DNA of 64,000 nt from NCBI GenBank assembly GCA_027262695.1, contig GCA_027262695.1_4722.1, one strand, 5' to 3'. The number at the start of each line of letters is the position of its first letter. Position 1 is the first letter of the stretch. This document shows positions 2,563 to 47,093 of the stretch, piece by piece. Made by a program: the position numbers and the translations under genes. The notes under the pieces were generated by a model. That model saw nothing but the letters and a program-made list of their open reading frames with translations, had not been told where the DNA came from and did no database searches. Source of the DNA: a phage.

Positions 2563-3060
2563 CTACGCTGAGACCGCCTGCATGGATACGTACATGACAG
2601 GCTGCTTGCACTTTCATGCAAGAGGAGACTATATCAAACCGGCAGCTTCACCTTCTCGATCGTATCGAGAATGCGGTGCTGAAGTATTCTTCAGCAGCAC
2701 CTGCTACGGTAACCTACACTTCGAAGACGCTTGTCCTCTACAGGGTGGTAAATCCCTTAGTCGTTGAACCTGCGTTGTTTCCCATTCTTGGTTGCAAGAA
2801 TGCCGTATTACTACGCAACAACCAGGCTGCTGATTGCCCATTGTCTCGCACCTTAGCACCGCTTACGCGGCTTTTCTTTCAGCCTAAGCCTCTTACGGAG
2901 GTAGTGCATCTCAACTGTTGTTTCTGCCTTTCGGCACCCCATGGGTCGTTGAGCTTTAGGGGTTCCCAGCAATTCGTAGGTTTTTCAAGCACTCCCTTTC
3001 GGGAATACCGGACAACTTCCCTTGAAAAAAGTCTTTATTTTTCAAGGACTTATCCCCGCC
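2563..3060 (-). ncRNA. candidate group I self-splicing intron (boundaries approximate)
   Basis: Minus-strand core elements in canonical order: P AATTGCTGGGAA (2974-2963), Q AATCAGCAGCC (2835-2825), R GTTCAACGACTAAGGG (2769-2754), S GATATAGTCTCC (2635-2624); R GACTA pairs with S TAGTC (P7). No ORF >60 aa on this strand across ~600 bp between two long same-frame ORFs. Confidence 0.6.
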
Positions 3061-4518
3061 GAGTCCCTGGAGGTACGGGCTCGGAATGCAAACCGTTTCT
3101 ACGAACGATGCTTTTTGTTTCCAATCAGGGTATTCCCATGCGATATATCGTTCGTCAGTAATCGGTTCCCAATTACTATCAAGTTCTGTCTTGGGAGAAG
3201 CGTTAACGGTTGTACGCGCATAACAGGTTAACGGAATGACTGACTGCATGCCCGATACCGGATAACGTGTTACCATCGCAGCCAGGTTGTTCCAGTATTT
3301 ATATCCTGCGATATAGATAAGCTCAGTATAAGTAATGGGGTGAACATCCGCACCAGGTTTGTTAAGCATCTCTGGCGGTATTTCACTCATACCGCGGAAA
3401 AGTCGGAATGAATCGTTGTTTACATAAACCAAACAGAGATAACGACCATTCACCATGATAGGTTCGTTACGTACGCCTGGATCGCTTAGCGTGTTCAATA
3501 AACGTTCGATACCATCCCAAGTAGTAAAGTCATCGATGGTGTCAGGATCAAGTACGACTCGTTCACGTTCCATCGTTTCGGTATCGATAAGCTCAACCTC
3601 GGTAACATCACGGACGAAGATCTCTTGCAAAATACCAGTACGTAATGCGTGTTGCGTTATCGGAAGGGCTGCTTTGCTCATCTGGTATAGACCAAGCTGT
3701 ACAGATGTACATGACGTTTGGTTTGGAGAACCGAGAACCTCCGTTGTGGGGTTAATTGCCGAAATAACGTTACGGGTTGAGTTCCAAACACGACGTGAAC
3801 CGAACTTACCTTGGAAGATCCCTTTCTTACCCTGGAACATATCCAACAGCAATGCGTAGATATCATTGAAGGTTCTTTGCAGGCTCCAGCGCTGTCCGTC
3901 GTAGACAGGATCGTTGTAGTCCTTTAATCCATCGGGAACGGTATTGGAGATAGCAAGGAAACGACGGTAGAGCTCCGTGATTTCTTGTTCGCTTTCATAC
4001 CCGCCTTCCTTTACTTCTATTTCACGAAGACCAGCAGGTAACACCAATAAATGACGGGTCATCGCTTTGAACATGTTTTCTTCGACAACTTTAATACGCA
4101 GTTCTCGTTGCGCTGAACCTGTTGAAACGAACTTGATCTCCGCAACGTGTTGTGCGAAGAAACCGTAGCCGGTTTGTCCCGTTAATGCGTCAGCAGCAAC
4201 GAAATCACGCTGTTCTGGATCCCATCGTGCATAAGCTTTACCGGACATGATATCGCCATAAAGGTGTTTCAATCGAATAAGGCGATCGTAAATGACCGGA
4301 TGCAAGATTTCCACTTTACACTCGATGACCGCAAAGCGGCGATCACGATCTTCACTACCCGCACTCCCAAAGATGGTGTATGAATAAAAACCATCATCAT
4401 GGAAATTACCCGTACTCGGGTCACGGATACTCATGCTGGTAATCTTAGGAAGGAAACGCAACTGCTGCTTATCAAGATGCAGTATACTGATATTGAACGG
4501 CTCTCTGACTTTAGCCAT
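2956..4518 (-). CDS. hypothetical protein, putative 5' exon of intron-interrupted gene (last ~30-45 codons before the stop at 2956 are probably intron read-through)
   Basis: ORF track 2956..4551; start moved to ATG 4518 (MAKVREPF) preceded by AAGGAG with 7-nt spacer. ORF continues through the intron P element into a stop. Confidence 0.55.
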   Translation of the reverse strand: MAKVREPFNISILHLDKQQLRFLPKITSMSIRDPSTGNFHDDGFYSYTIFGSAGSEDRDRRFAVIECKVEILHPVIYDRLIRLKHLYGDIMSGKAYARWDPEQRDFVAADALTGQTGYGFFAQHVAEIKFVSTGSAQRELRIKVVEENMFKAMTRHLLVLPAGLREIEVKEGGYESEQEITELYRRFLAISNTVPDGLKDYNDPVYDGQRWSLQRTFNDIYALLLDMFQGKKGIFQGKFGSRRVWNSTRNVISAINPTTEVLGSPNQTSCTSVQLGLYQMSKAALPITQHALRTGILQEIFVRDVTEVELIDTETMERERVVLDPDTIDDFTTWDGIERLLNTLSDPGVRNEPIMVNGRYLCLVYVNNDSFRLFRGMSEIPPEMLNKPGADVHPITYTELIYIAGYKYWNNLAAMVTRYPVSGMQSVIPLTCYARTTVNASPKTELDSNWEPITDERYIAWEYPDWKQKASFVETVCIPSPYLQGLGGDKSLKNKDFFQGKLSGIPERECLKNLRIAGNP

Positions 4519-4691
4519 GGATGCACTCCTTAAATAAGGCGGCGGTATCATCTGAACACATGAGAGACGTAATGGGTGAAGCCATCACCCATCGCTTCCC
4601 TGCTTGATGCGAGGAAGGTATTAAATTACGTACCTGTCCGATGGCCTCGAACAGGCGATGTATGAAGCTATGCTTCAATTTGGAGGTATAC

Positions 4692-7600
4692 ATGGTAGAT
4701 AAAACCCGTGTTGAGGGTGATGATAATTGGGATAACTGGGATGAGGACTTCTCCCTGGATCTCGATTTTGATGAACCCAAAGACGACCGTAAGCCCATAA
4801 CCCGTTATGCAATAGGTGTCGCCAAAGGGGCTGCTGAAGATCTTACTTCCTACGAAAGAATGAAGGAGATCGCCAGAAACGCATTACCTAAGGGTTATAG
4901 CGACGGTATGGATCTTATCGATTCCGCCGTCGGATCCACGAAGGAACTATACAATGAAGCCGTTCGTGACATTCTTCCGAAGGTACAAAGCTCAAAACGG
5001 TTAGCCGCACAACTGACGAAAAAATACCGTGCGAGCATGCCCGATTTCTCGAAGAAAATTATCGAGCGTTGGGAGCAAGAAGCCAAGGAAGAAGACGAAC
5101 GTAAACAGGCGGAAGCCGATCTTAAACAACGCATGGCGAATGCAGGTGATGAAGAAATCGCTCGCAAGGTCGCTGAGGCGTTAGGAGAAGCGGCTAACCA
5201 GAACGCGGATCAGTTTGCAGAACAACAAGCAAAAGAAAGTATCCGTGACGATATTGCTGATAAACGTTATAATGTCACCAACAAACAGATGAGCGCGATG
5301 CAGGAAGGCATCGCCAAGATGGTTGGTTTCAATAACGAATTCGCCGCACGCTATATGCGTAAAAGCCTGGAACTAAAATACCGTTCTTTGGCGATACAAC
5401 GCGCGAGTTTCGATCAGCATAAAAAGTTAGCCGAAGTCTATATCGGTTTATTACAGAACATCCAAAAGAACACGGCTTTACCGGATGCGGCTAAAGCAAA
5501 AATGTCGGAAGAATTTCGTCGCACAGCGTACCAACGTTTCTTTGGTAACGCATTGAATGCGATGAGTTCTTTCGAGAACCGTTTCTTTGCTGATGTTAAG
5601 AAAAACCTTGCAACCAATGCGTTGGGTGCGTTGAAAGGTGTTGTGTCTGGCGCACACGACGCCCTCTCCGGTTTAAACGAAGCACGCGACTCGATGTCCA
5701 TGATGGACGGTATGGGGTCAGAAGGCGATATTAAGGAAATGCAAGGGAAGATGCTGGGTCAGTTGATCGGCTCAACCGTTGCACCATGGATGGCGAATAA
5801 AGGCATGACGGCATTGCGGGATTTAGCAAAACGTCATCCTAACGCTAAATTCGCCAACGCGTTAAAAGCGGTCGATCAAGGCGGTGAAGCTGCTGCTTAT
5901 ACAACGCGTAACGTTGGGAAACTGCTGCAAGAAGATCTTCGTAAAAACGAATTCAACCTCAGCGATCCCTTCTACAAACAGTTCCTGCGTGGGGCTGGAC
6001 GTTGGGCCTTCAATCTGGACGGTGGTCGTAACTTCCGTGTGATGAACGACACCGCGGAGACGTTAGCTGAACAAACATCTTTCGATGGTTTAACCTATCG
6101 TAGCATCAACGAGGTCATTCCCGGATTTCTTGCTCGTATACTGAAAAGCACTGAAGGTATCCGTACCGGTGAAAATGATCCTGATTACGAGGTCTATGAT
6201 GGCATCAGCGGGCAATTCGTTGCTCAACGTACCCGCGAACAAGGTGTAACCGACACCCTCTTTAACAAACGTTCGTTCGGTTATTACGCCGGTCGTTTTA
6301 ATGAAGTTATCTCGGTTATCGATCCCGATAAACAGCTGTCAGAAAAGGCAAGGAAAGCCTTGGCTAAACAGTTAGCACGCGACAGCGATGCGAACATGGC
6401 TTTCGATCCTGCTCGATATACCGACGAAAGTAACTTTGATCGCAGCATCGATAGAGACGCCATTAAAGAACTTTCTGCGTATTTCAAAGATCGTTACGGC
6501 ATTCGTGACGATGTTGATGATGAAGGTAACCGTCAACAGGTTATTGAAAACCGTGGGCAGTACTACACGGAACGTAACCGCGCTGATCTGCGGTACGGTA
6601 ATCTGAAATCCTTGCAGCCGGATATCCAACGCAACCTTAACCTTCTGAAACGTACCGGTGATGTTCAATACCTGGAACGCATCGGGATCGTAACAAGAAA
6701 CAGCGATGGCAGTTATTCGGTTAATCACGATCGTTACTTCTCTGAAATCGATCAATACATCGACCGACCGGAATACGCTGACCGTGGTGATGTTAACACG
6801 CGACTCAGTGCCCAACAGACCAGGGCGTTGGCGTTAGGCTATCGTGACGACGTTGCGTCAAACGCTGACGTACAAAATCGTGCGTTACCAAACCTCGATC
6901 GAACAACGGTCGGAACGGTAAACATCGATGAGAACATCGGATACGAGAAATGGTGGAACGATGCGGGTGTTATCACCACATCGCTTGAAGACCAAAATCG
7001 AGCATGGCAAGAACTCTATCTTGAAGCGCTTCAGGAAGCTTCGCATCAACGTGAAACGATGCTGGAACTTCTGAAAGCGATCTCAGAAAAAGAATGGGGT
7101 GGTAGCGGCGTTGGCCGCCAGGGCGAACCTGGCGGTGAAGAAAGTGATGATCGCTCTATGTTAGGTCGGATCTCCGACCTAACACTAGGTAAAGCCGGTA
7201 GCTATGCCTGGAAAGGTGCAAAAGGAGCTGCCAAGTTCGGATGGAAATGGGGTCGAAAAGCGGCGACATGGGGCGCAAAACGTACGTGGGGAAGCTTCGT
7301 AAACTCAGCGCGTCGAATTATCAACTTCAACCGTTTTGTGTTCGGTGCGTTATCCAAGGTCGATCAAGTTCCGTTTGACATTTACGTTAAAGGTGAAGAT
7401 CGTCCACGTATCTTAGCTGCAAAACTTCGTCAAGGTCTGTATTTCGATGAAGCCACCGGCAAAGCCGTCAAACGGATGAAGGATATTAAAGGTCCGTTAG
7501 TTGATGCTGACGGCAACATCGTCATCAGCGCTGAAGATATCGAGAAGGGATTGATTACGCGCGCTGGACGTGCCTTCGAAAACTCCGGTTTGAAAGCATG

Positions 7601-15851: not shown

Positions 15852-15875
15852 CCTCCATGACTGTTATCATGGAGG
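15852..15875. promoter_or_regulatory. inverted repeat CCTCCATGA-n6-TCATGGAGG in divergent promoter region
   Basis: Perfect 9-bp arms between minus gene start (15783) and plus gene start (15918); followed by GGTAATATAG. Confidence 0.35.
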
Positions 15876-15917
15876 TAATATAGTCCTGATATTTTTTTCA
15901 ATACGGAGAATAGAATA

Positions 15918-28979: not shown

Positions 28980-28996
28980 GTAATATAGCCGTGAAA
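28980..28996 (+). promoter_or_regulatory. conserved 17-mer GTAATATAGCCGTGAAA (candidate promoter element)
   Basis: Identical 17-mer recurs at 43715-43731; the 9-nt core GTAATATAG recurs at 15875-15883. Confidence 0.35.
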
Positions 28997-31263: not shown

Positions 31264-32490
31264 CTACTTCGTTTTCGCCGTTATCGGCTGCGATACTGTA
31301 ATCTCGACCCGATCGACATCGGTACGTTTAACGATGATAAGGCTGCGTTCATCACCGAATGGTTCTGAGATCTTACAAGCCTCTTTAAGATTTTCGAGAA
31401 TCGTGCCATGGGGTTCAAACACCGCAAAACCGGAACTAGCGTCGATTCTTATTAAATATACACGCACATTGTTTACGGTAATGGTGTCATCCGTCTTGAA
31501 CCCACAGCAGGAGGGTAGACAGAACTGACCATTAACGCAATTAGCTAAGTATGCCTCACCACCGAACATTTCTATTAACGTCACCGGTTTAAATGTTTTC
31601 TCTGGGAAAGCATTATTAAGAATATCGTTTCCATTCACAAACCAGATCGTTACTTTATCTTCGGAATACGCTAGTCTGTATGGTTGGGTTGCGGACGCCT
31701 GCGCTTTATGCTGGTTAAATAACTTTGATTTTGTCGCAATCACAGCACGACCTTGGGCGTCAAAGTACAGAACTTCATACCCAACACATCCGATAAACAC
31801 GCGACGGTTATTAAGTTCCGGAATTCTGACTACTAACGCATTACCATCTTCCGTCGGTGTAATACCACGTAGGATGATAGATTCGTTGTTCAATGTTGAG
31901 TTGCTCACGATGACGCTTCGCATTACCGCTGGCGACACTATTTCATCTGCTGCAGGTTCAAGTTGCTCAGCTGTTACAGTCACGGATCTGTCTTCCTTTT
32001 CAACTGGCCAGTTGAAAAGGATTGTTTTATTAAGACAAACAATTGGGGTAATTTCGCCGATACTCCGTATCTTGACTGAGGGGCAATTGCACACATACGG
32101 AACAAAAACATCAATATCGTTGGTCGCTTCTTCAAGCATGCTAGCATACGCCATTGCTTCGGGACGATCGGTGAGATGAATAACAGCATAGACGATATCG
32201 TCTTTTAACCACGCACGTTTCACTCGTCCTATAACACGATTGATGTCTACAATAACTCTCTGAGCTTTCATCTCCCATTTTACTGCATCAGTACCACCCG
32301 CAACCACGTTCGGTTTATCCGTGTTTACACGATGAAGGAAACTATTGATTATTTCCTCATCGATCTGGATATCCTTTCTCGCAAAATTCAACAACGGAAT
32401 AACGAACTCATTGTTACCGCACTTCTCTGCTCCGCGAATGATAGGAGTACACTTCTTGTTCTCATCTGATCCCCAGATAACTTTAGTCAT
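31264..32490 (-). CDS. hypothetical protein
   Basis: ORF track 31264..32517 (GTG); ATG 32490 with AAGGA upstream preferred. Confidence 0.5.
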   Translation of the reverse strand: MTKVIWGSDENKKCTPIIRGAEKCGNNEFVIPLLNFARKDIQIDEEIINSFLHRVNTDKPNVVAGGTDAVKWEMKAQRVIVDINRVIGRVKRAWLKDDIVYAVIHLTDRPEAMAYASMLEEATNDIDVFVPYVCNCPSVKIRSIGEITPIVCLNKTILFNWPVEKEDRSVTVTAEQLEPAADEIVSPAVMRSVIVSNSTLNNESIILRGITPTEDGNALVVRIPELNNRRVFIGCVGYEVLYFDAQGRAVIATKSKLFNQHKAQASATQPYRLAYSEDKVTIWFVNGNDILNNAFPEKTFKPVTLIEMFGGEAYLANCVNGQFCLPSCCGFKTDDTITVNNVRVYLIRIDASSGFAVFEPHGTILENLKEACKISEPFGDERSLIIVKRTDVDRVEITVSQPITAKTK

Positions 32491-37699: not shown

Positions 37700-38089
37700 T
37701 TAACGGATTGCGTTTTGGATGATTTCTTTTCCGATCGTAATCAAAGCAGGTATCTGTACTGCGGTTGCGCCTTGATGACGAAACGCGGTCGTTAATGCGG
37801 TATCGATGCTCACAGCACGTCCGTGAAGACGATCGAAATAGACTTGAGTGATAGCAGCGGCATACTCTTTTCGCTGTTTCTTGGTTTGGTTTACCATCGT
37901 CGCACTACTACCGACGATGAAATAAGCGATTAAGAAGAATGCGGCTGACCGTGAGCCGGGTAGAAAGCCTTGGCGTTTAGGAAGCATTTCACAATCACGA
38001 ACAGTAATACTGTTCGTGAGCTTTTCCATGTCGACATGGCATAATTTTGCATAGGTGTGAAGATGATGGGTAAAAGTTGAATTTAACAT
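37700..38089 (-). CDS. small membrane protein
   Basis: Central TM AAFFLIAYFIVGSSATMV; GAGGAAAG upstream. Confidence 0.5.
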   Translation of the reverse strand: MLNSTFTHHLHTYAKLCHVDMEKLTNSITVRDCEMLPKRQGFLPGSRSAAFFLIAYFIVGSSATMVNQTKKQRKEYAAAITQVYFDRLHGRAVSIDTALTTAFRHQGATAVQIPALITIGKEIIQNAIR

Positions 38090-42554: not shown

Positions 42555-42854
42555 TTAGGGTTTAGGTTCCGTTTTGTATTGTGCGAGTAATGCGTTGATC
42601 TGCTCCCGTTGTTCTTTTAAGCATGTGGGAAGCTGGTCTTCCCGTACCGTTCCGATTTCCAACGTGATGTACCAACGTTGTTCGGAAGCCTGCCATTGAA
42701 AACTGCTCTGTAACCGAAGGATGTTGGGATCGCGTACCTTGCTTGCGCTGTAGCGATCGAACCAATCCAGATAAGCGGCTTTTCCTTCCTCGTCGGCAAC
42801 GTAACGCTGCACGCTGTTCTTGCCTTTGTTCTCGTATCCCGTGATGCGGATCAT
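42555..42854 (-). CDS. small hypothetical protein interleaved in paralog cluster
   Basis: ORF track 42555..42908; ATG 42854 overlaps stop of paralog 3 in ATGA arrangement. Confidence 0.45.
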   Translation of the reverse strand: MIRITGYENKGKNSVQRYVADEEGKAAYLDWFDRYSASKVRDPNILRLQSSFQWQASEQRWYITLEIGTVREDQLPTCLKEQREQINALLAQYKTEPKP

Positions 42855-43627
42855 GCGAACGTTTCTCCTGTAACGTGTTGCGGATAGCGTAGCATGGTAA
42901 CATCCCATTGTACGAATCCCTGCTGTTGGAGTTGTTGCATAACCGCTTCAACGTCTTGTCCTGGATGCGCAACCGGCAACCAACGTGTATCCAGCACCTT
43001 CGCTTCAAGGCGGGCTTTGCGCTTGTTCCAACGTACCTCGCTGATCCATGCGAAGCCAAGCGGATGCACCACCTGCGGGTAATGCACGCGCAGCAGGTTC
43101 TTCATCCGGCGAAGGATTGCAAGCCTGGCGTCAAGCGCGTATGGTTTCACCTGGTTAAGCTTGCGGGTGTAATACGTTCCCACGGTTTGGTTCGCCCAAC
43201 CAGGAAGCGCATGATGGGACCCAGCCTGCAATGTATTGTCCCCGTTCGTCTTCAACCAACCGTATTGCCCTGCCGCACGTCCTTTCTCATGTTCAACTTG
43301 TACCAGCTGATCGATGAACGAAGCATCAACGATACCGTGATCCACCTCATCCAACGCATAGCGCACCACCAACCCGCTCGCGCTCATCCGTGCGGGATGC
43401 TGGCTCCGATGCGCGTACCAAACCCTATTAACATGCAGCCGAGAAGGATACGTGTGTGCGCCACGCCAAAACACTTTTCCGAGAACACGTTCTCCACAGT
43501 ACACCATCACCCCTTTGTGATCGATTAGGTAATCCAACACCTTCATGCATTCCGCTTTGATGCTATCCGGTAATGCTAAGTATTCCTCTTCGGTGAACAC
43601 GGTATCAAAAATGATTTCATCGCTCAT
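42851..43627 (-). CDS. member 3 of triplicated paralog family (most divergent)
   Basis: HPLGFAWISEVRWN and GFVQWDVTML align with members 1 and 2. Confidence 0.55.
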   Translation of the reverse strand: MSDEIIFDTVFTEEEYLALPDSIKAECMKVLDYLIDHKGVMVYCGERVLGKVFWRGAHTYPSRLHVNRVWYAHRSQHPARMSASGLVVRYALDEVDHGIVDASFIDQLVQVEHEKGRAAGQYGWLKTNGDNTLQAGSHHALPGWANQTVGTYYTRKLNQVKPYALDARLAILRRMKNLLRVHYPQVVHPLGFAWISEVRWNKRKARLEAKVLDTRWLPVAHPGQDVEAVMQQLQQQGFVQWDVTMLRYPQHVTGETFA

Positions 43628-43639
43628 GGATAAAGTTCC

Positions 43640-44075
43640 TTGTTTTCACGTTGTTTGATTAACGTATTGATTTCTGATGATGATAACATCGATATGTTTG
43701 CTGTTATCAAGAAGGTAATATAGCCGTGAAAGGATTTGTATTACAGAAAGGATATTTGTTTTTAAGAAGGGACGATGGTTATCAGGAAGGAGGTTATCGG
43801 TAGGTGTAGGAGAGGGGATTTCAAGGAAGGTTTAAGAGGATAGTTATGTTGTTTAGTTGAGAGTTTGCTAAAATAGCTTTATCGTTATCTTAGTTTATCT
43901 GTGTATTCGTTAGGTATCTTGATTTATCTTCTTAATGATCTTTTCAAAAGTGTTATCATGGTTATCTTAGGTTATGTCTTAATTGTTTTATCTTGGTATG
44001 TTTAAGTTGTTTTAAGTTATCTGTTTATCTATCTTGTTATCTTGTTTAAGTTGTTAATGGCTTATCTTCAAAACA
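43640..44075. repeat. AT-rich non-coding region with purine-rich (A/G)GAAGG repeats (about 43700-43850) and at least 8 TATCTT iterons (about 43880-44070)
   Basis: No credible ORF; copies such as GTTATCTTAG, GGTATCTTGA, TTTATCTTCT, GGTTATCTTAGG, TTTATCTTGG, GCTTATCTTC; TGTTTAAGTTGTT twice. Confidence 0.6.
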
Positions 44076-44085
44076 ATGGATAACA

Positions 44086-44131
44086 TGTGTTTACTACGCT
44101 CGTTGAGTTATAACTCAACGGTAACACATGT
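44086..44131. promoter_or_regulatory. composite palindrome: perfect 20-bp CGTTGAGTTATAACTCAACG flanked by inverted ACATGTGTT / AACACATGT
   Basis: 44101-44120 is its own reverse complement; flanking arms extend the dyad imperfectly. Confidence 0.45.
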
Positions 44132-44535
44132 CATCTGTGCATTACACTACGTTACATGCTTATCAACGTTTTGTGAAGACAAAACGTTCAACTCTAAAAA
44201 ACCATTTGTGATACTCTTCTTCACGTTGTTCATCAGAGTATCTCGTCTATCCTCACTGCGTTCGCATACGACATCACCGTTATACGCTAACGCTACGCTT
44301 ATAGCTTATAACTCTAAGGATAAAAACATAAACTCGCTTCGCTCGTTTAGTTTTTCTTTTTCTTAGAGTTATCATGTTGCTCGTCTCTAAAGGACTTCGC
44401 TCCTCCCCCGTCCCCCGAAGGGGCCGAGGTCGTGGAAATTTTACTTTCCAAATACATTTACAACGTCTGTAAACTTTTACCGACACATACCTAATCTTAT
44501 ATTTAAAATTAGAAAAAGAGAAAATACGAACATAA

Positions 44536-44566
44536 CCCTCCTCCAACCCGGAAGGGAAGGAGGAGG
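44536..44566 (-). terminator. hairpin CCCTCCTCC-AACCCGGAAGGGAA-GGAGGAGG
   Basis: Same family as 13571; after stop of 44585..45478; followed on minus strand by TTATGTTCGTATTTT. Confidence 0.6.
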
Positions 44567-44584
44567 TGATAACAGTCTATTTAA

Positions 44585-45478
44585 TTAATCGGAAGTGTTA
44601 TAACCGAATACTGCTTTACCGTAGGTGTGAGTACCATCACTGAGTGACAATACTAATACGTGGTTATACGCATCGTTAACACCCTTGTCGGTAGAATCGG
44701 TGGTAACACCGTTGTAGACAAAGGTAGCTGATTGCAGATTGGTTTTCAGTTCATTGATGATATCATCACTTACACCAGTCTGCTCTTTAATCAGAGTAGT
44801 CAGGTTACCTGCTAAGCTTGCGTCGAGATTTACTTCGTTGCCAGTAATAGCTTGTAAACCTGAAGCGTAAGTACTGAAGTCTAACGGATAGGTTAACAGA
44901 CGTGCTGACGTTTTGGTACCATTGCCTTCATCAACGTAGGTTAAGTTACCCAGGTTGGTAACCTTGATAATGTTAGACAGATCCAGCGTTGTGTTATAAA
45001 CTTTAACTTGAACAGAACCATACCAAGCCAACGAATCTTCTTTGGCTTCCAGGGTAACGGTTTGGATACCTGACTGATCAAAGGTAACGGGATTAGATAA
45101 CGTTTCAGCTTTGATGTCTTTTGTTTTATCCAGGAACTTCTCGCCGGAAGGCGTAACCATACCGTAGCGTTGAGCTACGAGGTCGACCACGTCACCGATG
45201 GTGGTGTTTGCTTCAACACTAACGCGCACCGCGATCTTCTGGAACCATTTAGCCAGATCCAGACGATGATAGGTGACATCGCGGGTATTGAAGTACGGTG
45301 TACCATCACCCGGACTGAGTGTTAATGTTGCTGCACTATCAGAATCGCTTTTGGATTTAAGAACGTATTTGAGATCAGTGTATTTGAAACTGGCTCCCGT
45401 ATCGGCGTTAAGCTGGTTGATCTCATCAACGATAAGTTGCCACGGTGTTTTCAAAGTAAGTGATACTCGACTTGACAT
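44585..45478 (-). CDS. structural-region paralog family member A (YYDR-YG-LAWTGSV family)
   Basis: VTYHRLDL, LVAQRYGMV, LAWYGSVQV. Confidence 0.55.
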   Translation of the reverse strand: MSSRVSLTLKTPWQLIVDEINQLNADTGASFKYTDLKYVLKSKSDSDSAATLTLSPGDGTPYFNTRDVTYHRLDLAKWFQKIAVRVSVEANTTIGDVVDLVAQRYGMVTPSGEKFLDKTKDIKAETLSNPVTFDQSGIQTVTLEAKEDSLAWYGSVQVKVYNTTLDLSNIIKVTNLGNLTYVDEGNGTKTSARLLTYPLDFSTYASGLQAITGNEVNLDASLAGNLTTLIKEQTGVSDDIINELKTNLQSATFVYNGVTTDSTDKGVNDAYNHVLVLSLSDGTHTYGKAVFGYNTSD

Positions 45479-45620: not shown

Positions 45621-46163
45621 ATGGCCTTAGACTTTAACAAAGCAGCGAAATCCCTTCTGCTCGATCTTATCAACACCAAAGCAACTCGCACACTGACCGA
45701 AGAAGAACTGCAGTTCGGTACTCCGGGGGCATCTTCCGAACATTCTAAGAACACCGTTATTCAGCTGGATGCTGCGGATGAAGCAGAAAACCTGCAGGGT
45801 ACTCAGCAGTTCTACTACGATCGTCTGGCTCTATCTGACGTTTTCGCTGATGTAACCGGCGATGTTACTTTCGAACTGCCGCACGGTACTGAAAGCATCC
45901 AGGCTTCCGAGCTGGTAAGCAAGCTGGTCACCAAATTCGGCCTGGCTTCCCTGACCGGTGAAATCAAAGAAGAAACCTTCCAGCTGTCTGCAGGTACTGT
46001 TGGTCAGGTAACTCTGAGCGCGATCGAGAACGGTCTGGTATATACCGGCACTCTGCAGGTTGCTCTGACCTATGCAGCAGCACCGAAAGACGAACTGGCA
46101 ACCGTTCTGGCGAATAACGTAGCTGAAGGTTTCGTGAAACCTGAAGTAGCTGTCGTTGGCTAA
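45621..46163 (+). CDS. paralog family member B; strongly codon-optimised, probably very abundant virion protein
   Basis: FYYDRLAL, LVTKFGLA, LVYTGTLQV; near-exclusive CTG/GGT/CGT/ACC/TTC codon use unlike neighbours. Confidence 0.65.
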   Translation: MALDFNKAAKSLLLDLINTKATRTLTEEELQFGTPGASSEHSKNTVIQLDAADEAENLQGTQQFYYDRLALSDVFADVTGDVTFELPHGTESIQASELVSKLVTKFGLASLTGEIKEETFQLSAGTVGQVTLSAIENGLVYTGTLQVALTYAAAPKDELATVLANNVAEGFVKPEVAVVG

Positions 46164-46172
46164 TAAGCACGT

Positions 46173-46213
46173 AGAGCAATAGTATGGGTTTTGTACAGCT
46201 CGGCTATTGCTCT
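46173..46213 (+). terminator. stem-loop AGAGCAATAG-n21-CTATTGCTCT directly after stop of 45621..46163
   Basis: 10-bp perfect stem; further hairpins downstream in a ~290-nt 3' region. Confidence 0.4.
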
Positions 46214-46362
46214 TCTACAATTTGGTTGTAACAATCTGCGTGGTTGCACGCTTATCTTTCTCATTGAACGCTTCGTATGATGCGTGGTGTTGAAAGGGTT
46301 GTGGATCTCCTCAAGCGGCCAGGGACCCAGACCAACCTGAATAAACACAAACACATGTTAAG

Positions 46363-46394
46363 CCCCTCCTCATCCGTTATTGGGTGGGGAGGGG
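46363..46394. terminator. bidirectional hairpin CCCCTCCTCATCC...GGGTGGGGAGGGG
   Basis: Between convergent genes 45621..46163 and 46458..47093. Confidence 0.5.
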
Positions 46395-46457
46395 TCTTAT
46401 ACGTCTTTATGCGTTCCGTTCGTTCTGGAGCGTTTTAGAACGGTTTACGACAGGGTT

Positions 46458-47093
46458 TTATTCAGCACTGAAACCGTTCAAACGGATAGCTTCGTAACGT
46501 TTACGTTCACGACGTTTACGCGCCTGCCAACCGTAAATGAACTTCTCGTCTTTCTCACGACGTTCAGCTAATTCGATGTAATACATGCTCTGCATATCCA
46601 GCATCGCGTCGATAAGGTAATCTTTACCTTGCTCGCCACGTTTTGCGATATAAGCGTCCAACGCACCTAAGGTTTTAGGTCCCATCCCACCATCAGCGTC
46701 AATATCTTTCCAGTAAGTTTGACGGTTGTTCATGACGTTGAGGTAACGCTGGAGGTTCTTAACGGCAACGGATTTGCCTGCATTGATACCCAGATCAAAG
46801 AGACGGTCAGCTAAGAACACGGAACGCTTCATGACGTCATCAAGCTTCATCTTATCCCAGAAGTGGGTTTTGTAGATGAAGAACGCCATGTCGTAGGTCA
46901 GATTGCGCATATTACCATTCCAACCGAATTTCGTTTTCAGCGTGGTTTTGTATTGATCGGCGAGCGCTTTCGTAATTCCCATCATGGTTTCATTACCGCT
47001 GTCATCTGGGTCGTTGACGTATCCCGCCTCGATGTTGGTTTTATCACGAATGATGAATTCGCAGGTAAAATCTTTTTCAGTAATCTTGGTCAT
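46458..47093 (-). CDS. endolysin, GH108-like muramidase with PG_binding_3-like C-terminal domain
   Basis: EAGYVNDPDDSGNETMMGIT matches the GH108 motif (EGGYVNDP.D.GG.T.GIT); DADGGMGPKTLGAL matches the peptidoglycan-binding motif. Confidence 0.8.
   Translation of the reverse strand: MTKITEKDFTCEFIIRDKTNIEAGYVNDPDDSGNETMMGITKALADQYKTTLKTKFGWNGNMRNLTYDMAFFIYKTHFWDKMKLDDVMKRSVFLADRLFDLGINAGKSVAVKNLQRYLNVMNNRQTYWKDIDADGGMGPKTLGALDAYIAKRGEQGKDYLIDAMLDMQSMYYIELAERREKDEKFIYGWQARKRRERKRYEAIRLNGFSAE

What the first reader, a model, noticed from the sequence alone, without database searches (positions are those of the whole stretch)
44086..44131. Composite palindrome at the edge of the AT-rich island
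A perfect 20-bp palindrome CGTTGAGTTATAACTCAACG (44101-44120) is flanked by inverted copies of ACATGTGTT / AACACATGT, giving an imperfect dyad of about 46 bp. It could form a cruciform or bind a dimeric protein (operator, origin-melting site, or recombination site).
Basis: seen in the sequence. Interest (0 to 1): 0.4.

Follow-up and report, generated by a model that had tools for sequence, protein, structure and literature searches.

The report
Variable hairpin tip in phage spacer
The palindrome is real, but it is only the optional tip of a dispensable stem-loop in a non-coding spacer of a Goslar-like jumbo phage, so it is ordinary; the more notable feature is the almost invariant 285-base non-coding block beside it.

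Summary
The window comes from a relative of the nucleus-forming E. coli jumbo phage Goslar. The perfect 20-bp palindrome is at 44101-44120, as reported. It sits inside longer arms (44079-44094 and 44121-44135), offset by a 6-nt bulge. It exceeds chance, but perfect hairpins are enriched across the whole window.

I compared about 25 related genomes. The palindrome occurs in only 4-5 of them. Ten carry a 16-nt shorter tip and 5-7 carry a third tip. Five sequences lack the whole stem-loop, through at least four different deletions. The basal stem never varies except for one A-to-G change, which keeps pairing only on the minus strand (G.U).

The palindrome has no second copy in the window. It lies about 350 nt from the nearest promoter, a phiKZ-type early promoter at 43714-43731. 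It does not match this phage's canonical terminators (GC-rich stem followed by TTAT).

My best reading is an accessory stem-loop in a minus-strand transcript, acting as a 3' end, stability or insulator element. The palindrome would then be an unstable, probably ancestral, extension of its tip. An operator, origin or recombination site is not supported.

Next to it, 44196-44480 is 94-97.5% identical across the clade with no conserved ORF. This is a candidate new structured RNA.

The parts
44101..44120 (.). Perfect 20-bp palindrome CGTTGAGTTATAACTCAACG. It forms the tip ('form A') of the stem-loop.
   Evidence: Present in the window, L008/L010, L020 and L021 only.
44079..44094 (-). 3' arm (minus sense GTAAACACATGTTATC) of the conserved basal stem.
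   Evidence: Invariant in every genome that carries the module.
44121..44135 (-). 5' arm (minus sense GATGACATGTGTTAC) of the conserved basal stem.
   Evidence: The only variant is L007 GATGGC, which gives G.U on the minus strand and C.A on the plus strand.
44095..44100 (-). One-sided 6-nt bulge (minus sense AGCGTA) between the basal stem and the inner palindrome.
44066..44078 (-). Conserved 3' flank of the hairpin (minus sense CATTGTTTTGAAG) with a short interrupted U-tract.
   Evidence: It does not fit the TTATNYY(N)GT terminator tail.
44060..44164 (-). The whole stem-loop module, bounded by 7-nt direct repeats GCTTATC (44060-44066 and 44158-44164). It is deleted between these repeats in L006 and L034.
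44165..44188 (-). Second optional hairpin (10-bp perfect stem). Its loop is CTTC (minus sense) in the window and GAAG in six relatives, a loop flip.
44196..44480 (-). Nearly invariant non-coding block, a candidate structured RNA, ending in a hairpin plus a T6 run.
44526..44566 (-). Canonical phiKZ-type terminator of the upstream virion gene: CCTCCTCC...GGAGGAGG followed by TTATGTTCGT.
   Evidence: Motif taken from PMC10914365.
43885..44067 (-). AT-rich island holding nine same-orientation AGATAA repeats.
   Evidence: 0.7 expected. Absent from L009.
43714..43731 (-). phiKZ-type early (virion RNA polymerase) promoter TTTCACGGCTATATTACC for the downstream ORFan gene 42851..43627.
   Evidence: Consensus taken from PMC7058600 Table 2.

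Best explanation
The dyad is the DNA image of a long, bulged stem-loop that forms in a minus-sense single strand, most probably a transcript.

**Setting.** It sits in the plastic spacer between a nearly invariant non-coding block (44196-44480) and the AGATAA-repeat island plus early promoter of the next gene.

**Which part is under selection.** The conserved part is the 15-16-bp basal stem with its flanks. The 20-bp perfect palindrome is only an extension of the tip. It raises stability from about -19.5 to -25.9 kcal/mol.

**History of the tip.** The palindrome is probably the ancestral state. It has collapsed independently to two shorter tips, and the whole stem-loop has been lost at least four times.

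**Function (inferred, not shown).** An accessory RNA element that helps define or protect the 3' end of the upstream non-coding transcript. It could equally insulate the early promoter region from read-through. It is helpful but not essential.

**What it is not.** It is not an operator, an origin or a site-specific recombination site.
For: **Shown**
- The region is non-coding. A 16-nt indel, module deletions and two 1-nt indels break every frame, and no start codon is conserved.
- Three tip alleles sit on an invariant basal stem, and all of them fold into the same hairpin.
- The only basal-stem substitution (L007, A to G) costs 0.3 kcal/mol on the minus strand (G.U) and 1.2 on the plus strand.
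- In the adjacent block, every one-sided stem change is a wobble that pairs only in minus sense.
- The minus strand of 44060-44500 folds at -137.7 kcal/mol against -108.8 for the plus strand.
- Both flanking genes, the upstream terminator and the downstream early promoter are on the minus strand.
- Where present, the module is very conserved outside the tip: 1-3 mismatches in about 80 nt, while the flanking CDS differ by 5-32%.

**Inferred**
- The palindrome allele occurs in both sequence lineages of the block. Form B occurs in only one lineage and form C only in the other. Both B and C keep remnants of one palindrome arm.
Against: - There are no transcript data, so transcription of this stretch is only inferred.
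- There is no compensatory double substitution in the basal stem, which is simply invariant. Structure-level selection therefore rests on the tip variation and a single wobble change.
- For the palindrome allele itself, both strands fold equally well.
- The hairpin does not belong to this phage's canonical terminator class. Its stem is AT-rich and it has no TTATNYY(N)GT tail.
- Five sequences lack the module, so any function is dispensable.
- The block ends with its own hairpin plus a T6 run about 60 nt upstream. The transcript may stop before it reaches the dyad.
Confidence: 0.45

Rival explanations
1. Functionless structural relic. The palindrome and the stem-loop are neutral products of hairpin-templated mutation (template switching or snap-back during replication) in a fast-evolving AT-rich spacer. 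They persist by chance or by linkage to the conserved block.
For: - The spacer is highly plastic: modules come and go, deletions fall between short direct repeats, and there are tandem 11-mers.
- Loop flips in three neighbouring hairpins show DNA-level hairpin events in this lineage.
- The module has been lost at least four times, and the palindrome has collapsed twice.
- The genome has a general excess of perfect hairpins, some of them inside ORFs.
Against: - Outside the tip the module is almost invariant (1-3 mismatches in about 80 nt), while the flanking genes differ by 5-32%. That is hard to reconcile with neutrality, unless the whole intergenic region was recently homogenised by recombination.
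- All three tip alleles keep a foldable hairpin.
Confidence: 0.3
2. DNA-level site. The palindrome would be a binding site for a dimeric protein or a cruciform. It would act as an operator, as an origin-associated element next to the AGATAA iteron-like array, or as a recombination site.
For: - The dyad symmetry is perfect, with an AT-rich centre.
- It adjoins an AT-rich island with nine same-orientation AGATAA repeats.
- GAGTTAT/ATAACTC is locally enriched: 4 of the 8 window copies lie in this gap.
- Tip alleles are shuffled relative to the flanking lineages, which suggests recombination nearby.
Against: - The palindrome is absent from about 80% of relatives.
- Four deletion types remove the module. 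In one assembly (L009) the deletion also takes the whole repeat array.
- There is no second copy in the window or in IMG/VR.
- It lies about 350 nt from the promoter.
- There is no GC-skew inflection.
- No neighbouring gene product matches a DNA-binding family.
- The 6-nt one-sided bulge disfavours cruciform extrusion beyond the 20-bp core (inference from the general behaviour of cruciforms).
Confidence: 0.12
3. Canonical factor-independent terminator of the phiKZ type, closing the upstream transcription unit.
For: It is a hairpin followed 3 nt later by UUGUUUU on the minus strand. It lies between a late virion gene or non-coding unit and an early promoter on the same strand.
Against: - The six clear terminators in the window have GC-rich perfect stems that abut TTATNYY(N)GT and a T-rich trail. 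This matches the published phiKZ motif.
- The dyad is about 30% GC, and its tail TTATCCATTGT fails the pattern.
- The generic terminator scan did not call it.
- A canonical terminator already follows the upstream gene at 44526-44566.
Confidence: 0.1

Closest known systems
phiKZ-type intrinsic terminators (BCCYCCCC...GGGRRGG followed by TTATKYYGT; Putzeys et al. 2024, PMC10914365)
   Same: An intergenic stem-loop on the transcribed strand at the end of a unit, followed by T-rich sequence. The same window holds six true members, one of them 400 nt upstream at 44526-44566.
   Different: The dyad has an AT-rich, bulged stem of about 25 bp, lacks the TTATKYYGT tail, and is dispensable.
Intergenic and 5'UTR-derived small RNAs of giant phages (201phi2-1 and phiKZ; PMC11512511)
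   Same: Short structured non-coding units between a promoter and a nearby terminator in Chimalliviridae, conserved among related phages by position and fold.
   Different: There is no sequence similarity. The unit here (block plus hairpins) is longer, at about 285-420 nt, is restricted to Goslar-like phages, and has no transcript evidence.
Quasipalindrome or template-switch mutation, and small hairpin-loop inversions (known from bacterial mutagenesis and chloroplast non-coding DNA; from general knowledge)
   Same: Perfect inverted repeats that gain or lose an arm and whose loops flip between relatives. This is exactly the polymorphism pattern seen here.
   Different: This describes how the sequence arose, not a function. 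The direction of change (gain or loss of the palindrome) is inferred only by parsimony.
Operators and iteron-type origins of phages (for example lambda ori; from general knowledge)
   Same: Dyad symmetry next to an AT-rich region that carries direct repeats.
   Different: The site is not conserved or repeated, is not near a promoter, has no initiator or repressor gene nearby, and the array and dyad are deleted in natural relatives.

Membership tests
phiKZ-type intrinsic terminator | GC-rich stem-loop (CCYCCCC...GGGRRGG-like) | tested here: not met
   The dyad stem is about 30% GC. The six canonical examples in the window are GC-rich.
phiKZ-type intrinsic terminator | TTATKYYGT-like tail that abuts the stem | tested here: not met
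   A regex TTATNYY(N)GT plus upstream fold finds 14714-, 28255-, 29950+, 41642-, 44535- and 62671- but not the dyad, whose tail is TTATCCATTGT.
phiKZ-type intrinsic terminator | Transcript 3' ends map to it | not testable with these tools
   No RNA data are available.
Operator for a dimeric DNA-binding protein | Dyad-symmetric sequence | tested here: met
   Perfect 20-bp palindrome.
Operator for a dimeric DNA-binding protein | Conserved in related genomes | tested here: not met
   Present in 4-5 of about 25 sequences. Two other tip alleles and five module-less sequences exist.
Operator for a dimeric DNA-binding protein | Overlaps or adjoins a promoter, with further copies in the regulon | tested here: not met
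   The nearest promoter motif is about 350 nt away. There is no other copy at up to 3 mismatches in 64 kb. The rest of the genome was not available.
Iteron-type replication origin | AT-rich region with direct repeats | tested here: met
   Nine AGATAA repeats in one orientation at 43885-44067, with GC content 0.28-0.32.
Iteron-type replication origin | Retained in all viable relatives | tested here: not met
   L009 lacks window 43874-44193, though this rests on one assembly. The dyad module is also absent in L006, L033, L034 and L038/L039.
Iteron-type replication origin | Strand-composition switch or adjacent initiator gene | tested here: not met
   There is no skew inflection. The neighbouring genes are ORFans or virion proteins.
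Structured RNA element (hairpin with variable tip) | Fold much more stable than shuffles | tested here: met
   z = -4.1 to -4.8 for the three main tip alleles and -3.5 for the L007 variant on the minus strand.
Structured RNA element (hairpin with variable tip) | Pairing kept through substitutions (covariation) | tested here: inconclusive
   The basal stem is invariant apart from one A-to-G change that gives G.U in minus sense. No double compensatory change was seen.
Structured RNA element (hairpin with variable tip) | Is transcribed | not testable with these tools
   No RNA data are available. Orientation is inferred from the flanking signals.
Any Rfam family | Covariance-model match | tested here: not met
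   No hit at E<=1 across 43000-45000. Only two noise hits at E<=10.

The most novel reading that the evidence does not exclude
The stem-loop, with its optional palindromic tip, is the variable 3' domain of a previously undescribed structured non-coding RNA of about 300-420 nt. This RNA would be specific to Goslar-like nucleus-forming phages. Less likely, it is a single-stranded-DNA-active element.

The core is the nearly invariant block 44196-44480, which carries four GCGNAGC-type mini-hairpins with GNA triloops. The palindrome would be an expansion segment on that molecule.
Probability: 0.25. Interest if true: 0.55.

Novelty: new member of a known kind. Interest (0 to 1): 0.25.

Why it matters
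The palindrome itself matters little. It is an optional, unstable tip on a dispensable intergenic stem-loop, and it can be removed from lists of candidate operators or origins.

Its polymorphism is still a clean natural example of palindrome gain, collapse and loop flipping in jumbo-phage genomes.

The neighbourhood is more useful. It gives promoter and terminator landmarks for Goslar-like phages that match the phiKZ early-promoter and terminator consensus. It also exposes a 285-nt non-coding block more conserved than any nearby gene. That block is a concrete target for asking whether nucleus-forming phages use their own structured RNAs.

Tried and rejected
- **Protein-coding reading.** The plus-strand ORF 44076..44366, the minus-strand ORF 44280..44546, and a 117-aa gene called over the block in L008/L010 are all rejected. 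A 16-nt indel, two 1-nt indels, module deletions and non-conserved starts break every frame.
- **tRNA or tmRNA.** None in the window.
- **Rfam.** Nothing credible.
- **Similarity to E. coli genomes or plasmids.** None.
- **Repeated operator or mobile palindromic element.** No other copy in the window and none in IMG/VR. One hit in GTDB genomes, in a Pedobacter MAG, is consistent with chance.
- **Sigma-70 promoter or generic terminator scans.** Counts were at the background level and nothing was called at the dyad.
- **phiKZ late-promoter TATG upstream of the block.** Present in the window lineage (GGTATGTG) but absent in the Goslar lineage (GTACCTGG), so it is not conserved.
- **Distant relative L015** (flanking protein 50% identical). 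It has a small membrane-protein ORF at this position and neither the block nor the dyad.
- **GC-skew evidence for an origin.** None.
- **DnaA-box-like TTATCCATT at the hairpin foot.** Only 7 of 9 matches, recalled from memory and not pursued.

Full report
**1. What the window is, and where the finding lies**

The region around the finding matches Escherichia phage vB_EcoM_Goslar (NC_048170). Goslar is a nucleus-forming jumbo phage. Identity is about 77-86%.

The finding lies in a 957-bp gap (43628-44584) between two minus-strand genes.
- Upstream in minus sense is 44585..45478, a DUF7941 virion structural protein and the homologue of Goslar gp022.
- Downstream is 42851..43627, an ORFan and the homologue of gp021.

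**2. The observation**

- The 20-bp palindrome CGTTGAGTTATAACTCAACG is at 44101-44120 and is perfect.
- The outer arms really span 44079-44094 and 44121-44135.
- They are not concentric with the inner palindrome. TACGCT (44095-44100) forms a one-sided bulge.

The composite hairpin folds at -25.9 kcal/mol as RNA on either strand. No shuffle out of 200 does as well. As DNA it folds at -15.8 and -14.9 kcal/mol.

A perfect palindrome of 20 bp or more is expected 0.1 times per window. The window has four. It also has 13 perfect stems of 10 bp or more against 0.7 expected. The feature is therefore real and non-random, but it is one instance of a genome-wide excess. Several of the other hairpins sit directly after gene stops.

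**3. Comparison with relatives**

Relatives came from three routes:
- three IMG/VR contigs;
- homologues of the flanking virion protein, traced back to their contigs;
- one metagenome scan with a 20-mer from the conserved block.

Alignments and a direct read-out give this census in minus sense.

| State of the tip | Sequence | Where found |
|---|---|---|
| Form A (the palindrome) | ACCGTTGAGTTATAACTCAACGAGCGTAGT | window, L008/L010, L020, L021 |
| Form B | ACCGTTAAGGTAGT (ACCATTAAGGTAGT in L012) | Goslar, L007, L012, L014, L016, L026, L028, L029, L035, L037 |
| Form C | ACTGAAGTTGTAGT | L018, L022-L024, L025, L040, L041 |
| Module absent | - | L006 and L034 (deletion between ATAAGC direct repeats), L033, L038/L039, L009 |

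- L033 and L038/L039 carry other, different deletions.
- L009 has a 320-nt deletion that also removes the whole AT-rich island.
- At least three module-less sequences come from 237-240 kb contigs, which is full genome size.
- The basal stem GATGACATGTGTTAC / GTA(A)ACACATGTTATC and the following CATTGTTTTGAAGATAAGC are invariant wherever the module exists.
- The one exception is L007 (GATGGC). It keeps pairing as G.U in minus sense only. The cost is 0.3 kcal/mol on the minus strand and 1.2 on the plus strand.
- All three tip alleles fold into the same hairpin. Forms B and C fold at -19.6 and -19.4 kcal/mol on the minus strand, against -17.3 and -16.9 on the plus strand.

**4. History of the palindrome (inference)**

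The adjacent block exists in two sequence lineages. Form B is confined to one lineage and form C to the other. Form A occurs in both.
- Form B equals form A minus 16 nt plus one substitution.
- Form C can be read as form A minus most of the same arm.

The most parsimonious reading is that the palindrome is ancestral and has collapsed twice. The alternative is transfer of the palindrome between lineages by recombination.

Neighbouring hairpins show loop flips between relatives:
- 44165-44188 has loop CTTC in the window and GAAG in six relatives;
- the core of the upstream terminator is flipped in L008/L010;
- the UUCG loop is flipped to CGAA in L009.

Hairpin-mediated DNA rearrangement is therefore active in this lineage.

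**5. Context signals**

*Early promoter.* The sequence TTTCACGGCTATATTACC at 43714-43731 (minus strand) recurs at 28980-28993 and, with two mismatches, at 15875-15888. It matches the published early-promoter consensus of phiKZ-like phages: phiKZ TATATTAC and 201phi2-1 TTTRARR_BTATATTAC (PMC7058600 Table 2). The downstream ORFan is therefore probably an early gene. The dyad lies about 350 nt upstream of its promoter.

*Terminators.* The published phiKZ terminator motif is a GC-rich hairpin followed by TTATKYYGT (PMC10914365). It is clearly present six times in the window, including 44526-44566 directly after the virion gene. The dyad does not fit this class. Its stem is AT-rich and its tail is TTATCCATTGT.

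*Other local features.* The AT-rich island holds nine same-orientation AGATAA repeats against 0.7 expected. There is no GC-skew inflection.

**6. The neighbour that stands out**

Window 44196-44480 is 94-97.5% identical to every relative. The flanking coding sequences are 77-95% and 68-99% identical. In a sliding comparison it is the most conserved stretch of the 6-kb neighbourhood, with column identity 0.93-0.99.

It is not coding. Two polymorphic 1-nt indels shift the frame, the start is not conserved, and only some genomes have an open frame.

Both strands fold far better than shuffles (z about -6.4). The minus strand is more stable, at -137.7 against -108.8 kcal/mol. All one-sided changes in predicted stems are wobbles that pair only in minus sense.

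Four mini-hairpins of the GCGNAGC type (2-bp stem, G-N-A triloop) lie on the minus strand. One of them shows compensatory alleles:
- AU/UA with loop GCA
- AU/UA with loop GUA
- AU/CG with loop GCA
- GU/CG with loop GCA
- GC/CG with loop GAA

One datum runs the other way. The window and L041 share an allele that puts a G.G mismatch in the stem below that mini-hairpin.

There is no Rfam match, no similarity to E. coli genomes or plasmids, and no copy in the distant relative L015. I found no description of such an RNA for Goslar in the literature I searched. Small RNAs are reported for phiKZ and 201phi2-1.

**7. Interpretation**

The pattern has five parts:
- an invariant basal stem;
- interchangeable tips;
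- repeated loss of the whole module;
- minus-sense wobble tolerance;
- minus-strand transcription signals on both sides.

It fits an accessory stem-loop in a minus-strand transcript better than a duplex-DNA protein site. I rate that reading at 0.45. Its role as a 3'-end, stability or insulator element is inferred, not shown.

Rivals:
- a neutral relic of hairpin-templated mutation (0.3), which is weakened by the near-invariance of the module outside the tip;
- a DNA-level operator, origin or recombination site (0.12);
- a canonical terminator (0.1), which failed its membership test.

**8. Verdict**

The palindrome is ordinary (interest 0.25). The adjacent invariant block is the item worth following up. 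The most novel reading still open is that the dyad is the variable 3' domain of a new RNA specific to Goslar-like phages (probability about 0.25).

Noticed in passing
window 44196-44480 (minus sense): A non-coding block that is 94-97.5% identical across about 25 Goslar-like genomes, more conserved than the flanking genes. It has no conserved ORF and no Rfam hit. Its fold is strong, and substitutions tolerated as wobbles fit the minus sense only. This is a candidate new structured RNA.
   Followed up: partly
window 44196-44480, minus strand (e.g. GCGAAGC at 44336-44342; variable patch about 44255-44272): Four GCGNAGC-like mini-hairpins (2-bp stem, G-N-A triloop). One has five compensatory alleles in relatives. 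The motif recalls the very stable d(GCGAAGC) DNA mini-hairpin (from memory), so action as single-stranded DNA cannot be excluded.
   Followed up: partly
window 44165-44188; 44536-44566; about 44405-44428; compared with L008, L009, L012, L025, L028, L035, L037: Hairpin loops are flipped between related genomes: CTTC against GAAG, the terminator core, and UUCG against CGAA. These are small inversions mediated by the inverted repeats.
   Followed up: partly
window 43714-43731(-), 28980-28993(-), 15875-15888(-): The motif TTTCACGGCTATATTAC matches the phiKZ/201phi2-1 early (virion RNA polymerase) promoter consensus. These are likely early promoters of this phage.
   Followed up: partly
window 14714(-), 28255(-), 29950(+), 41642(-), 44535(-), 62671(-): GC-rich perfect hairpins that abut TTATNYY(N)GT and a T-rich trail. 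This is the phiKZ-type terminator motif, conserved in a Goslar-like phage.
   Followed up: partly
window 43885-44067 (minus strand): Nine AGATAA repeats, all in one orientation (0.7 expected), with a duplicated unit of about 44 nt. The array is iteron-like, of unknown role, and is deleted in relative L009.
   Followed up: partly
window 2605-3037 (-): A group I intron (Rfam RF00028, 58.4 bits, above the gathering score) next to or overlapping the start of ORF 2956..4551.
   Followed up: no
window 46150-46650: A second highly conserved stretch (column identity 0.91-0.96). It covers the 294-nt gap between convergent genes and holds a phiKZ-type terminator (CCCCTCC...GGGGAGGGG).
   Followed up: no
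window 31994-32021; also 7159-7184, 37995-38019: Long perfect hairpins (14-bp and 12-bp arms) lying inside long ORFs rather than between genes.
   Followed up: no
L008 3447-3800 and L010 3447-3800: Public gene calls place a 117-aa protein over the conserved block in these contigs. The frame is broken in most relatives, so the call is probably spurious.
   Followed up: yes
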